DNA from: a virus
Taxonomy: Duplodnaviria > Caudoviricetes
Reading direction: 5' to 3' (one strand)
Length of the DNA stretch: 64,000 nucleotides
IMG/VR virus record: IMGVR_UViG_3300021093_000004
The position numbers and the translations under genes were made by a program. The notes beneath the pieces are model-generated. The model saw only the letters and a program-made list of their open reading frames with translations, was not told the DNA's origin and searched no databases. Below are positions 40,008 through 42,992 of this stretch, piece by piece (position 1 is the first letter of the stretch; each line of letters begins with the position of its first letter).

Positions 40008-41315
40008 ATGGCGAAGATTAGTACGATCAAAGAAGCGATCATGATTTGTCGCGATGCCTATGTCACCCCATTCATCTGGGGCCATCGCGGGTTGGGTAAA
40101 TCAAGTTTGGTGCAACAAGTTGCCGCCGAACAGTCTTGGGGGTTCATCGACCTTCGATGCTCTCAATTGGAAGCTTCCGATGTTCGTGGGCTTCCTGATC
40201 GTGTCAATGGTCGGACGCATTATCTTCCACCAGCCGATATGCCGGTCGGCGATCTTACTCTGGAACAGATCGAAGCGGAATTGGGCAAAATGCCAGATCC
40301 GGGCGATCTCGAAGCCGAACGTCAATACTATCTCAAGCTTCAAAGCTTGCAACCGCGATTCCAACGCGGAATCCTTTTCATCGACGAAGTGAACCGTGCC
40401 CAAGACGATGTGCTTCAAGCCATCTTCCAGTTGGTGCTCGACCGTCGCGTCGGGATGTATGTCCTTCCTCCCGGATGGTGCGTTGTTGCGGCGGGCAACT
40501 ATATGGAAGGATACATGGTTACGGGGTTCAATGACCCTGCATTCTTGAACCGATTCAGCCACCTGATTTTGAGTGGTGGCGAGACGACTCTCGAAGAGTG
40601 GGTCAATTACATGTCCGTCGCCCATGGTCCAACAGCGACCGATGTAATCGAATTCGCTTCACAGAACACGAAGCATTTGGACGGTGATGTTGCGGGAGAA
40701 CTTGGGTTTTCGATTCAGCCGTCTCGCCGATCGTGGGAAATGGTGGTTCGTGTTGATAAGGCTTGCGAAGCCGGTGGTTATAACGAAACCGCCAGAATAG
40801 AAGTGTTGGCCGGGTTGGTCGGTCGAGAATTGGCCCAAGCATTCACCCGCTATTCATGCCCTGTCAAGCCGCGTGAACTGATTCAACGTGGTGTGAAGGT
40901 CTTCGAAGACAAGCTTCGCAAATTGAGCCGGAACGAACTGACCGGTCTCATGTGGGGTATGGTTTCATTCTGCAAGACGCAGACCGAGAAAGACGAAATT
41001 GCTACTGTCTGCCTCGATTTCGCGGAATTCATGGTGGGTGTTACCAGCGACAAGGATGTTGTAGTTGCATTCTGCCGTGCGTTGGTCAGCGGTGGACACC
41101 CTAACGATAAACAGGAAAAGCCACGTGCTGCGGTAATCTCGAATCCGCGATTGGCAGAAATGATGAGCAAATTCGGCAAGAAAGCCGGAAACGACCGCAA
41201 ATCGTTTGTGGATCGGTTGGTGGAACGCCCGGCATTGCAACAAGCTTTGGCCCGCGTTTCGTGGGGCTTTGATGATTCCGAAGAACCAGAACCCCCAAAG
41301 AAAGGCAAGAAGTGA
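40008..41315 (+). CDS. MoxR-like AAA+ ATPase
   Basis: WGHRGLGKS Walker A; LFIDEVNRA Walker B; AAGN; RF. Confidence 0.88.
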   Translation: MAKISTIKEAIMICRDAYVTPFIWGHRGLGKSSLVQQVAAEQSWGFIDLRCSQLEASDVRGLPDRVNGRTHYLPPADMPVGDLTLEQIEAELGKMPDPGDLEAERQYYLKLQSLQPRFQRGILFIDEVNRAQDDVLQAIFQLVLDRRVGMYVLPPGWCVVAAGNYMEGYMVTGFNDPAFLNRFSHLILSGGETTLEEWVNYMSVAHGPTATDVIEFASQNTKHLDGDVAGELGFSIQPSRRSWEMVVRVDKACEAGGYNETARIEVLAGLVGRELAQAFTRYSCPVKPRELIQRGVKVFEDKLRKLSRNELTGLMWGMVSFCKTQTEKDEIATVCLDFAEFMVGVTSDKDVVVAFCRALVSGGHPNDKQEKPRAAVISNPRLAEMMSKFGKKAGNDRKSFVDRLVERPALQQALARVSWGFDDSEEPEPPKKGKK

Positions 41316-41324
41316 TCCCTGTGA

Positions 41325-41496
41325 ATTGATGCCAGTTAGATGTAGCGGAAACCTTACCGCTGTTGAGTTACGGGGAATGCACCCTAAGTCGGAGCGAGTG
41401 AAGCTGGTCGTGCTTGAACTAGCTGCGATGCCGAAAGGCAAAACCTCGGCAAGCTATCACATCGATGGGAGTTGAGACCCATTAACTGGTGTCAAT
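41325..41496 (+). ncRNA. Candidate structured RNA, family not recognised
   Basis: 14-bp closing stem with two G-U pairs enclosing several hairpins, including a GAAA tetraloop. Confidence 0.55.
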
Positions 41497-41534
41497 CTTT
41501 TGCCACAATGTAATATACCAACAGGGAGTTAAAT

Positions 41535-42992
41535 ATGAGACAGATAGCTGCGACAGTTCCGGGCGGGCGTGCTCCGGTTGATGAAAAACAAGCGGATCGA
41601 TTGATGAAGGCTCGCTGCCGCCTGATGATGCGAGAGCCGTGGTACGGTCACGTTGCTATGAGCATGGTATGGATTCCCAGCCAAATGTCATGGATGGCAG
41701 AGAATCGCCGCACGATGGGTGTGCGGATTGTTAACGGTGGTGAGATTCAATGCTTGTATTATCCGCCGTTTATTGAGACTCTGAACATCAAAGAGTTATA
41801 TGCGGTCATTCAGCATGAAATCGAGCATATTGTCCGAGTTCACTGTGTTCGCATTGGTGATCGTGAGCCTGAAGCGTGGAATATCGCCGCCGATATGACG
41901 GTGAATGGGCCTCGATCTTCACCACGAATTGGTTATTCAGACCCGACCACGAACGAACTGGTGATTCCGTTTAAGAATCAGATCGTCTGGATTCCGGAAG
42001 ATTGGCCGAAGGATGGAACTTCGGAGCAGTTCTACGATCAACTCAAGGAACGCCAGCAGACCAAGGTCTGTAACTCGTGTGGTCGCCCGACTCAAGGCCA
42101 TGGGCAAGGGAAAGGCCCGAAGGGTCAGGGTCAAGGCCAAAAGCCGTCTCAAGGTGGCGGAACGCCAGGACAGGGCAACGGAACGCCAGAACAGGGCAAC
42201 GAAACGCCTTCCCAAGGCAACGGAACGCCTCAGAATGGCGGTCAGCCGGATGAAAACACTTACCCCGGCTGCGGACAAGATCATGATGGCGTCTATCATT
42301 ATGGTGGAGTTTCGGGGCGTGGATTGGATGACCACAGCGTCTGGAATCAGTCTGATGTGTCTCAAGATGAAGCCCGTCAGATTGTTAAGGATTTGGTAGA
42401 TCAAGCGACTCAGAAATGTCAAGGTCATTTTCCGGGCCATCTGCAAGGTGCTATCCAAGAACTTGGAAAGCCAGTTGTTCGTTGGCGTGAATTGTTGCGA
42501 CATTATCTTGGCAAGCATGTCGGCAATCAACGGTCCACATATTCTCGTCGGAACCGCCGCCGAGATTGGTTTGGTGTGCCTGGTATCAGCCACCACGCGG
42601 CTGCAAATGTCAACGTGATCGTCGATACGTCCGGTTCCATTGGTGTTCGTGAATTGGAGCAATTTTTCGCTGAAATTGATTCGATCAGCTCACGTGCAAA
42701 GACCATGGTGCTTCAATGGGATGCGGCATTTCAGGGATACGAGAAGTATCGCCGTGGCGATTGGAGAAGATTCAAGATCACTGGGCGTGGCGGCACTGAC
42801 ATGGCTAAGCCTGTGCAGTGGGTAATTGATAATCATCTGGTGGCCGACGTTCAGGTCATGTTGACGGACGGCTATTGCAACTACACCGATGCTTCGAACG
42901 TAAAATTCCCGATTATTACGGTGATTACCACCCCAGAAGGTACTACTAATAGCCCTCCATACGGGCATGTCGTTAGGATGAAGGTGGCATGA
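41535..42992 (+). CDS. HExxH metallopeptidase-like plus vWA domain protein (DUF2201-like)
   Basis: QHEIEH..RVH, WNIAAD, VIVDTSGS MIDAS, GRGGTD, LTDG; 21-bp GTPGQGN repeats. Confidence 0.85.
   Translation: MRQIAATVPGGRAPVDEKQADRLMKARCRLMMREPWYGHVAMSMVWIPSQMSWMAENRRTMGVRIVNGGEIQCLYYPPFIETLNIKELYAVIQHEIEHIVRVHCVRIGDREPEAWNIAADMTVNGPRSSPRIGYSDPTTNELVIPFKNQIVWIPEDWPKDGTSEQFYDQLKERQQTKVCNSCGRPTQGHGQGKGPKGQGQGQKPSQGGGTPGQGNGTPEQGNETPSQGNGTPQNGGQPDENTYPGCGQDHDGVYHYGGVSGRGLDDHSVWNQSDVSQDEARQIVKDLVDQATQKCQGHFPGHLQGAIQELGKPVVRWRELLRHYLGKHVGNQRSTYSRRNRRRDWFGVPGISHHAAANVNVIVDTSGSIGVRELEQFFAEIDSISSRAKTMVLQWDAAFQGYEKYRRGDWRRFKITGRGGTDMAKPVQWVIDNHLVADVQVMLTDGYCNYTDASNVKFPIITVITTPEGTTNSPPYGHVVRMKVA

What the first reader, a model, noticed from the sequence alone, without database searches (positions are those of the whole stretch)
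41325..41496. Unrecognised ~170-nt multibranch RNA inserted between the AAA ATPase and its vWA partner
Seen: closing stem ATTGATGCCAGTTA/TAACTGGTGTCAAT (14 bp with two G-U pairs, consistent with plus-strand RNA); GATGT/ACATC; and hairpins AGCGG/CCGCT, GGG/CCC, AGCTGGT/ACTAGCT, TGCC-GAAA-GGCA (alternative TGCCGA/TCGGCA) and ATGGG/CCCAT. Known: MoxR and vWA genes are usually adjacent and co-expressed. Inference: a novel ncRNA, riboswitch or ribozyme controlling ATPase-to-vWA stoichiometry, or a small mobile RNA.
Basis: partly seen in the sequence, partly recalled or inferred. Interest (0 to 1): 0.75.

Follow-up and report, generated by a model that had tools for sequence, protein, structure and literature searches.

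The report
New folded RNA in lake phages
The flagged stretch is a real, evolutionarily conserved folded RNA of about 170 bases that matches no catalogued RNA family. It turns up in unrelated gene neighbourhoods of several uncultured phages, so it is a portable RNA gene of unknown function, not a device built for the two genes around it.

Summary
Window 41325-41496 (plus a U-tract to 41501) lies in the 219-nt gap between a MoxR-like AAA ATPase gene and a metallopeptidase-vWA (DUF2201) gene of an uncultured lake jumbo phage. Seven further copies were found in metagenome contigs: three at the same site in sister phages, one of them with a second, miniature copy in tandem, and three in other phage contigs. 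On eight sequences, 96.5% of pair cells form standard pairs and 24 of 51 pairs change on both sides, against 27-44% and at most 7 when partners are slid. There are 32 G-U cells against 4 A-C cells, so the plus strand is the RNA. Rfam 15, tRNA finders and T4 rnaC/rnaD gave no match.

The three other contigs share no protein similarity with the window or, among those tested, with each other. The outer stem differs completely between contexts while the core stays 69-85% identical. One relative has the two genes 34 nt apart, and others hold small ORFs there.

Verdict: a new structured RNA family carried as an accessory cassette. Control of ATPase-to-vWA stoichiometry is not supported. Function is unknown. 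The likeliest reading is a stable RNA co-transcribed with the upstream gene and ending at the outer stem plus U-tract.

The parts
40008..41315 (+). Upstream gene: MoxR-like AAA+ ATPase (435 aa). Its stop codon lies 9 nt before the RNA.
   Evidence: Pfam AAA_16, AAA, AAA_5. Homologues are named MoxR-like ATPase by JGI.
41325..41501 (+). The structured RNA (P1 to P1') plus the trailing CUUUU tract
   Evidence: CM R1 scores 199.6 bits. Covariation is shown. Fold z is -4.2.
41325..41338 (+). P1 5' strand. It pairs with 41483-41496 (14 bp, two G-U).
   Evidence: 13 of 14 pairs change on both sides across the family.
41339..41343 (+). P2 5' strand GAUGU. It pairs with ACAUC at 41459-41463.
   Evidence: helix 2: 100% of cells paired, and 4 of 5 pairs have double changes.
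41344..41361 (+). P3 hairpin AGCGG-AAACCUUA-CCGCU
   Evidence: helix 3: 100% paired. The sequence is nearly invariant, with one double change.
41362..41371 (+). J3/4, GUUGAGUUAC. This is the most conserved single-stranded segment (GUYRAGUUAM), and the mini copy keeps it.
   Evidence: L119 deviates, reading GUCGAGAAA.
41372..41385 (+). P4 hairpin GGGG-AAUGCA-CCCU. Every copy's hexaloop contains a 4-nt palindrome.
   Evidence: helix 5 (GUGG/CCAC in the mini copy).
41388..41392 (+). P6 5' strand GUCGG. It pairs with UCGGC at 41446-41450.
   Evidence: helix 6: two pairs are doubly changed in L003 (AUCAGG/CCUGGU), and U-G is invariant in all copies.
41395..41416 (+). P7 hairpin: CGAGUGA, loop, UCGUGCUUG, with a 2-nt bulge
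   Evidence: helix 7: 93.5% paired, with one-sided changes only (G-U to G-C, U-A to U-G).
41420..41424 (+). UAGCU. The partner is unresolved: AGCUA at 41452-41456 (P8, which would make a pseudoknot with P6) or AGUUA at 41366-41370 in J3/4.
   Evidence: P8 is 86.7% paired and breaks in L119. The alternative is 94% paired without clean covariation (helix 4).
41430..41439 (+). P9, an optional hairpin, GCC-GAAA-GGC
   Evidence: It is replaced by 60-75-nt hairpins in L002 and L003, and is absent in L095, L101 and L119.
41465..41482 (+). P5 hairpin AUGGG-AGUUGAGA-CCCAU. It abuts the P1 3' strand directly.
   Evidence: helix 8: 100% paired, and 3 of 5 pairs have double changes.
41483..41496 (+). P1 3' strand
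41497..41501 (+). CUUUU tract directly after P1 (U6 in L001-L003, UUUUAU in L119)
   Evidence: In L095 a separate 13-bp terminator hairpin follows instead.
41535..42992 (+). Downstream gene: metallopeptidase + vWA-like protein (DUF2201_N + DUF2201), with its own GGGAG Shine-Dalgarno at 41524-41528
   Evidence: Pfam. The pair is described for T4-like (group 2.2) jumbo phages in PMC7824862.

Best explanation
This is a gene for a previously uncatalogued structured RNA of about 150-230 nt. Uncultured phages carry it as an accessory cassette in hypervariable gaps between conserved genes. Shown: the fold. A variable 7-14-bp outer stem (P1) closes a three-way junction (P1/P2/P5). P2 opens into a second junction with two nearly invariant hairpins (P3, P4) and a 10-nt conserved linker. 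A peripheral domain (P6/P7, optional P9) is missing in a ~100-nt mini copy. Also shown: the RNA strand is the coding strand of the neighbouring genes, and the RNA is independent of the ATPase/vWA pair. Inferred: it is transcribed with the upstream ORF, whose stop codon lies 0-10 nt before or inside P1 in the copies where it could be read. The transcript mostly ends at P1 plus the U-tract, or at a separate terminator in L095. This would leave a clamp-closed, nuclease-resistant RNA whose conserved core acts in trans by binding a protein or small ligand. At the window's site the same stem and U-tract would incidentally lower read-through into the vWA gene.
For: Conservation and covariation: eight copies from seven contigs. 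96.5% of pair cells are paired, 24 of 51 pairs change on both sides, and 0 of 500 shuffles reach this. Slid controls give 27-44% paired and at most 7 such pairs (seven-sequence version).
Strand: 32 G-U cells against 4 A-C cells.
Not a known family: Rfam 15 gives nothing for the window at E<=10, and nothing but tRNAs for five member loci at E<=1.
Context independence: the RNA lies between ATPase and DUF2201 in the window and L001-L003. In L095 and L119 it lies downstream of an RNA ligase gene. In L101 it sits among tRNA genes. L095, L101 and the window share no protein similarity (L119 was not compared this way).
P1 identity between contexts is 32-46%, while core identity is 69-85% whatever the context.
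Optional at the window's site: L112 has a 34-nt gap. L004-L008 have 581-2439 nt of small ORFs.
3' end signals: U4-U6 directly after P1 in five copies, and a 13-bp terminator after the L095 copy.
Stop codon of the upstream ORF at or just before P1.
Against: No transcript data exist, so the ends, the stability and even expression are inferred.
Only eight copies, all from metagenomes, and partly found with a sequence pattern taken from the core. This inflates apparent core conservation.
The L101 copy has no U-tract or terminator after P1.
Single-sequence folding energy is unremarkable for the short members (z -1.3 for L095, -1.65 for L119).
The U-run after P1 at the window's site may partly pre-exist in the empty site, which reads TAATTTGC in L112.
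No candidate partner protein is shared by all contexts.
Confidence: 0.45

Rival explanations
1. It is a cis-acting intercistronic attenuator, possibly a riboswitch. The conserved core senses a ligand, or translation of the upstream ORF, and decides whether P1 forms. P1 plus the U-tract then terminates transcription before the downstream gene, setting the ATPase:vWA ratio at this site.
For: P1 is followed at once by U4-U6 in the window, L001-L003 and L119. The upstream stop codon abuts or overlaps the P1 5' strand, so terminating ribosomes would melt P1. A variable P1 around a conserved junction core with an optional peripheral hairpin is typical aptamer anatomy. In the window and L001, UCCCUGU (41316-41322) can also pair with ACAGGGA (41522-41528), which covers the Shine-Dalgarno of the vWA gene.
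Against: Downstream genes differ in every context: DUF2201, unrelated small ORFs, or nothing before a strong terminator in L095. L101 has no U-tract. The L003 mini copy is followed by another RNA copy, not a gene. The Shine-Dalgarno-masking helix is absent in L002 and L003. Most ATPase/DUF2201 pairs manage without the element.
Confidence: 0.22
2. It is a new self-cleaving ribozyme or RNA-processing element that cuts the polycistronic phage transcript between genes.
For: It is independent of context, sits on the same strand as the flanking genes, and has a tandem mini-plus-full arrangement. It also has variable outer and optional peripheral stems around a sequence-invariant junction core. All of these are common traits of self-cleaving ribozymes found in phage genomes (established knowledge of hammerhead, twister, pistol and hatchet distribution).
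Against: No known ribozyme family matches. The hammerhead-like string CUGCGAU-hairpin-GAAAC does not fit the CUGANGA core, and its hairpin is absent in three members. Cleavage cannot be assessed in silico. At 150-230 nt it is larger than most self-cleaving classes.
Confidence: 0.13
3. It is a passive mRNA-end structure: a 3'-UTR bulkhead, or an RNase III processing stem, that stabilises the upstream message, with no function for the RNA itself.
For: It always lies immediately 3' of an ORF on the same strand. The long P1 clamp and terminator-like tail are shown.
Against: A simple hairpin would serve that purpose. The 69-85% sequence conservation of junctions and hairpins P3 and P4 across otherwise unrelated phages argues that the core itself is the selected feature.
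Confidence: 0.12
4. It is a DNA-level element (a miniature inverted-repeat transposable element, or a recombination or replication site), or a chance fold.
For: There are terminal inverted repeats, and it sits at sites where gene content varies.
Against: The inverted repeats are not conserved in sequence between contexts, only in pairing. 32 G-U cells against 4 A-C cells would be mismatches in DNA or on the other strand. Internal helices covary. There is one copy per locus and per 64-kb window. No target-site duplication was seen.
Confidence: 0.04

Closest known systems
Orphan structured ncRNAs of phages (GOLLD, ROOL and similar Rfam motifs of unknown function)
   Same: It is phage-borne, intergenic, has a covariation-supported complex fold, is sometimes close to tRNA genes (L101), and has no known function.
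   Different: It is much smaller (150-230 nt against 400-800 nt). It has no Rfam match at any threshold tried and a different architecture.
Phage T4 rnaC / rnaD (species 1 and 2 stable RNAs)
   Same: They are small stable RNAs of unknown role in a T4-type phage, similar in size at 120-140 nt.
   Different: The covariance model finds no similarity. The best hit overlapping rnaC scores 1.9 bits, E 4.6. The T4 RNAs lie in the tRNA cluster and carry a tRNA-like 3' domain, whereas this RNA is not recognised as tRNA-like.
Bacterial Y RNAs (YrlA/YrlB) with Rsr (Ro60, a TROVE + vWA protein) and RtcB
   Same: The 5' and 3' ends pair into a long stem that closes a modular structured domain. One copy (L119) lies about 3 kb downstream of an RtcB / 3'-5' exoribonuclease / RNA ligase cluster, and the window copy lies next to a vWA protein.
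   Different: There is no match to Rfam Y RNA models. The terminal stem is not sequence-conserved, whereas the Ro-binding stem of Y RNAs is. No TROVE protein was seen in the flanks available. The vWA neighbour here is a DUF2201 peptidase-vWA co-chaperone (PMC7824862).
Riboswitch aptamers and medium-sized ribozymes closed by a variable P1 (for example glmS-sized RNAs)
   Same: It has a variable closing helix, conserved multi-helix junctions, an optional peripheral hairpin of variable length, and a tandem arrangement in one genome.
   Different: There is no consistent downstream gene class, no known ligand or cleavage site, and no family match.
Accessory gene cassettes in hyperplastic regions of T4-type phages (PeSL-type cassettes)
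   Same: It occupies a gap between conserved genes that in relatives is empty or filled with unrelated small ORFs.
   Different: The cargo is an RNA, not a small protein gene. No cassette promoter or repeat handle was identified at its borders.

Membership tests
Any Rfam 15 family (4227 covariance models) | Score at or above the family gathering threshold, or at least a low E-value, on either strand | tested here: not met
   The window at gathering threshold gives only five tRNAs, all elsewhere. Window 41200-41650 at E<=10 gives only two chance C/D-box hits inside the DUF2201 ORF. Five member loci at E<=1 give only tRNAs in L101.
tRNA / tmRNA / tRNA-like | Cloverleaf recognised by ARAGORN or RF00005, with T-loop and D-loop signatures | tested here: not met
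   ARAGORN finds six tRNAs at 10-14.7 kb and none at 41.3 kb. Rfam tRNA does not hit. Only the P5-on-P1 stacking geometry resembles an acceptor/T arm.
Hammerhead ribozyme | CUGANGA - stem II - GAAA core at a three-way junction | tested here: not met
   The window reads CUGCGAU-GCC GAAA GGC-AAAAC (GAAAC in L001-L003). The box does not fit, and the hairpin is absent in L095, L101 and L119. No Rfam hit.
Group I intron | P3-P9 core with a G-binding P7, inserted within a gene, with exon continuity after removal | tested here: not met
   No Rfam intron hit. The element lies after the ATPase stop codon and before a separate gene with its own Shine-Dalgarno and ATG. In L112 the two genes are separate without it.
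Y RNA (Rsr/Ro-associated) | Conserved Ro-binding terminal stem, an adjacent TROVE-domain gene, and an Rfam Y RNA model match | tested here: not met
   The terminal stem is only 32-46% identical between contexts. No Rfam match. No TROVE domain among the neighbours scanned.
T4 rnaC/rnaD stable RNAs | Sequence and structure similarity to the T4 genes | tested here: not met
   cmsearch with filters off on T4 68-76 kb gives at best 1.9 bits, E 4.6, over rnaC.
Intrinsic (Rho-independent) terminator | A stable stem immediately followed by a U-run, with termination shown in vitro or in vivo | tested here: inconclusive
   P1 is followed by U4-U6 in five of the seven full-length copies. The 'loop' is a 130-200-nt domain, so the consensus scan does not call it. 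L095 uses a separate canonical hairpin and L101 has none. Termination itself is not testable here.
Riboswitch | A conserved aptamer upstream of a consistent set of regulated genes, with ligand-dependent structure change | tested here: not met
   The gene-association criterion fails, because downstream genes are unrelated between contexts. Ligand binding is not testable with these tools.
Miniature inverted-repeat transposable element | Conserved terminal inverted repeats, target-site duplication, many copies per genome | tested here: not met
   The terminal repeats covary rather than being conserved. There is one copy in the 64-kb window. No duplication is visible at the borders.

The most novel reading that the evidence does not exclude
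The RNA is a new functional class, either a self-cleaving ribozyme or a ligand- or protein-sensing RNA, whose closing stem doubles as a transcription terminator. It may also act as a homodimer: all eight P4 hexaloops contain a 4-nt palindrome, and the window's AAUGCA differs from the common AAUUAA by the paired change UUAA to UGCA that preserves self-complementarity. It may be linked to phage RNA repair, since copies lie near RNA ligase or RtcB genes and among tRNA genes.
Probability: 0.2. Interest if true: 0.85.

Novelty: new variant of a known kind. Interest (0 to 1): 0.55.

Why it matters
Jumbo phages are turning out to carry many structured RNAs whose roles are unknown. This one is small enough for direct biochemistry (about 100 nt in its mini form). 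It has a well-resolved covarying scaffold with an unusually sequence-constrained core, and it moves between unrelated phage genomes, which implies a function useful in its own right. If that function is catalytic, ligand-sensing, or a decoy or cofactor in RNA repair or host defence, it would add a new RNA class. If not, it still corrects the annotation: the gap is an RNA gene, and the MoxR/vWA pair is not specially regulated by it.

Tried and rejected
1. Rfam at gathering and permissive thresholds on the window and on five member loci: no family.
2. ARAGORN: no tRNA or tmRNA here.
3. T4 rnaC/rnaD comparison with the covariance model: no similarity.
4. Nucleotide searches of 50,697 cultured-phage records with the window and L095 copies: no match. 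The DUF2201 protein has only 25-32% identical, partial-length relatives there.
5. IMG/VR pattern scans, six patterns: only chance hits, none confirmed by the model.
6. GTDB genome contigs: four chance hits, none real.
7. Whole-record searches by handle were not available for these loci.
8. Sequencing runs: DNA holders are lake-water metagenomes. No RNA holder was listed, so expression could not be examined.
10. Helix P8 (UAGCU/AGCUA, pseudoknot with P6): mismatched in L002, L095 and L101 and broken in L119. The alternative J3/4:UAGCU pairing is possible. Neither is established.
11. Intron reading: rejected, because the flanking genes are separate in all relatives.
12. The Shine-Dalgarno-masking helix 41316-22/41522-28 occurs only in the window and L001, without covariation.
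13. The six contigs L097-L099, L102, L104 and L105 share a 25-nt module but not the architecture. Fold z is -1.0.
14. MAFFT alignment of the empty site L112 against filled sites was uninformative.
15. The RNA ligases near the L095 and L101 copies show no detectable similarity to each other. The 385-aa protein in L095 is not RtcB. No shared partner gene emerged.

Full report
OBSERVATION

Window 41316-41534 is a 219-nt gap between two plus-strand ORFs. The upstream ORF (40008-41315, 435 aa) matches AAA_16, AAA and AAA_5. The downstream ORF (41535-42992, 485 aa) matches DUF2201_N (putative metallopeptidase) plus DUF2201 (vWA-like). This MoxR-type ATPase / peptidase-vWA pair has been described in T4-like 'group 2.2' jumbo phages as a probable assembly chaperone pair (PMC7824862).

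The inverted repeat 41325-41338 / 41483-41496 is present: 14 nt, with two G-T positions. The plus-strand fold of the gap is -75.9 kcal/mol, z -4.2, and none of 200 shuffles folds as well. The minus strand gives z -2.9. Rfam 15 gives nothing here at gathering thresholds or at E<=10. ARAGORN finds tRNAs only at 10-14.7 kb.

HOMOLOGUES

The closest DUF2201 and ATPase relatives, found through protein searches, were traced to their contigs.
- Three sister contigs carry the element at the same site: L001, L002 and L003, with ATPase 82-85% identical where it is present.
- L003 has in addition a ~100-nt miniature copy in tandem.
- More distant relatives do not have it. L004-L008 hold 581-2439 nt of small ORFs between the two genes.
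- In L112 (ATPase 74% identical) the two genes are only 34 nt apart.

A covariance model (R1) combined with a pattern scan of metagenome contigs found two further copies, L095 and L101. A third, L119, was reached through the RNA ligase next to the L095 copy.

Copies of the window's own phage from several lake samples are identical. Nothing was found in IMG/VR, in GTDB genomes or in cultured-phage records.

STRUCTURE

On the eight-sequence model alignment A5, a hand-refined structure was tested.
- 96.5% of pair cells form standard pairs.
- 24 of 51 pairs have changes on both sides.
- The covariation score is 0.354 against 0.150 in shuffles, and 0 of 500 shuffles reach it.
- Sliding the 3' partners by 1-3 columns drops pairing to 27-44%, with at most 7 doubly changed pairs.

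P1 is the clearest helix. Its sequence is unrelated in L095 (AGUCAAAUCUG/CAGAUAUGACU), L101 (CAUAGCACAG/CUGUGCUAUG), L119 (GGUCUGU/ACAGACC) and the window, yet it always pairs.

P2 and P5 also covary strongly. P3 and P4 are nearly invariant, with single compensatory changes. P6 (GUCGG/UCGGC) becomes AUCAGG/CCUGGU in L003. P7 shows only G-U/G-C-type changes.

The partner of the conserved UAGCU (41420-41424) is unresolved. The obvious P8 would form a pseudoknot with P6, but it is mismatched in three members and broken in L119. Pairing with AGUUA of J3/4 is an alternative.

P9 (GCC-GAAA-GGC in the window) is optional. It is absent in L095, L101 and L119, and is replaced by 60-75-nt hairpins in L002 and L003.

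The mini copy keeps P1, P2, P3, J3/4, P4 and P5 only.

Across the nested helices and P6 there are 32 G-U cells against 4 A-C cells, so the RNA is the plus strand. Single-sequence folding energies are exceptional only for the window clade. L095 gives z -1.3 and L119 gives z -1.65. The case therefore rests on covariation, not on energy.

CONTEXT

L095 and L101 are phage-like (thymidylate synthase, DHFR, methyltransferase, RNase H, RNA ligases). L119 carries RNA-repair and helicase genes.
- L095 and L101 share no detectable protein similarity with the 64-kb window or with each other. L119 was not included in that comparison.
- In L095 the RNA follows two small ORFs downstream of a PF09414 RNA ligase. 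A 13-bp canonical terminator follows it.
- In L119 it lies 1.1 kb downstream of the homologous ligase, beyond an RtcB and an Rv2179c-like exoribonuclease gene. The sister contig L118 lacks it.
- In L101 it lies in a region with four tRNA genes on the same strand.
- Wherever the upstream ORF could be read, it is on the same strand and its stop codon lies 0-10 nt before, or inside, the P1 5' strand.
- In five of the seven full-length copies P1 is followed directly by U4-U6.

Core identity is 69-85% for all pairs of copies, whether or not they share a genomic context. P1 identity falls to 32-46% between contexts. The core is therefore under strong sequence constraint, and P1 is needed only as a stem.

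INTERPRETATION

What is shown:
- It is a real, plus-strand, structured RNA family absent from Rfam.
- It is not tied to the ATPase/vWA pair.
- It occupies gene gaps that are empty or filled with other accessory genes in relatives.

What is inferred, in order of likelihood:
1. Stable RNA (about 0.45). The RNA is co-transcribed with the upstream ORF, ends at P1 plus the U-tract or a nearby terminator, and persists as a clamp-closed stable RNA. Its invariant core (P3-J3/4-P4 plus P6/P7) would bind a factor in trans.
2. Cis-acting attenuator or riboswitch in which P1 is the terminator stem (about 0.22). The unrelated downstream genes and the L095 and L101 arrangements weigh against it.
3. New self-cleaving or processing RNA (about 0.13).
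4. Passive 3'-end stabiliser (about 0.12).
5. DNA-level repeat or chance (about 0.04).

At the window's site a stem plus U-tract between the two genes would probably reduce vWA transcription relative to the ATPase.

COMPARISON WITH KNOWN SYSTEMS

The element works most like other orphan phage ncRNAs, but it is not a member of any of these families.
- T4 rnaC/rnaD show no model similarity.
- Y RNAs share the paired ends and, loosely, the RtcB and vWA neighbourhoods. The terminal stem is not conserved here, no TROVE gene was seen, and no Rfam model matches.
- Hammerhead, group I intron, tRNA-like and MITE readings each fail a defining feature, as listed in the membership table.

LIMITS

There are only eight copies, all from metagenomes. 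Several were found with a pattern taken from the core, which exaggerates conservation of that block. L119, found independently of that pattern, indeed deviates in J3/4. No RNA-level data could be obtained: no RNA run was listed.

Earlier notes of this scan describe the genome as a ~350-kb T4-related lake phage with cassette-type gene shuffling and another unassigned tRNA-shaped RNA. These notes were used only as context and were not tested here.

Noticed in passing
L003:2638-2742: A ~100-nt miniature copy of the RNA (P1, P2, P3, J3/4, P4, P5 only, with no P6-P9 domain) lies directly upstream of the full copy in one sister phage. It scores 58.8 bits with the model. It defines a minimal core and would be the best construct for biochemistry.
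   Followed up: partly
window 41316-41322 and 41522-41528: UCCCUGU, just after the ATPase stop codon, can pair with ACAGGGA, which overlaps the Shine-Dalgarno of the vWA gene. This extends the P1 clamp across the whole gap in the minimum-energy fold. It is present in the window and L001 only, with no covariation.
   Followed up: partly
L097, L098, L099, L102, L104, L105 (for example L104:2103-2122 minus strand): Six ENA metagenome contigs share a 25-nt module, GCUGUUAAGUUAAGGGGAAUUCACC. It matches the L101 copy's P3'-J3/4-P4 at 23 of 25 positions but sits in a different scaffold: a variable GC hairpin, then a short stem plus U6. Four of the contigs end just past the module (L097, L098, L102) or within it (L099), which suggests a repeat. 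It may be a related RNA module.
   Followed up: partly
L112:1374-1407: An 'empty site': in a relative with a 74% identical ATPase, the DUF2201 gene starts 34 nt after the ATPase stop. The spacer begins TTTGC, as does the spacer after the RNA in the window.
   Followed up: partly
L009:1074-2420, compared with L008:1076-2419: In one of two contigs encoding an identical DUF2201 protein, the ATPase gene is called as three pieces (205, 88 and 87 aa). In the other it is one 447-aa ORF. This could be a disrupted gene, an insertion or an assembly error.
   Followed up: no
L119:1264-4583: An RNA-repair cluster (RtcB, an Rv2179c-like 3'-5' exoribonuclease, a small ORF, and an RNA ligase of the PF09414 family) lies upstream of the RNA copy. 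L095 has the same ligase but no RtcB, and L118 has the ligase followed by an HNH/NUMOD4 endonuclease gene.
   Followed up: partly
window 41376-41381 and the homologous P4 loops: All P4 hexaloops contain a 4-nt palindrome: AAUUAA, AAUUGC, AAUUGA, and AAUGCA in the window. The window's UGCA replaces UUAA by a paired change. This is compatible with loop-loop self-association but is statistically weak.
   Followed up: no
window 41574-41628: There are three direct repeats of an 11-nt unit ending in TGATGA, spaced 21-23 nt apart, inside the start of the DUF2201 ORF. They produce weak chance hits to archaeal C/D-box models (E 0.095). They are probably only repeated codons.
   Followed up: no
L006:1903-2423 and L007:2225-2438: ORF-free stretches of 520 and 214 nt sit among the small ORFs that fill the ATPase-DUF2201 gap in other relatives. 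The RNA model does not match them. They were not scanned against Rfam.
   Followed up: no
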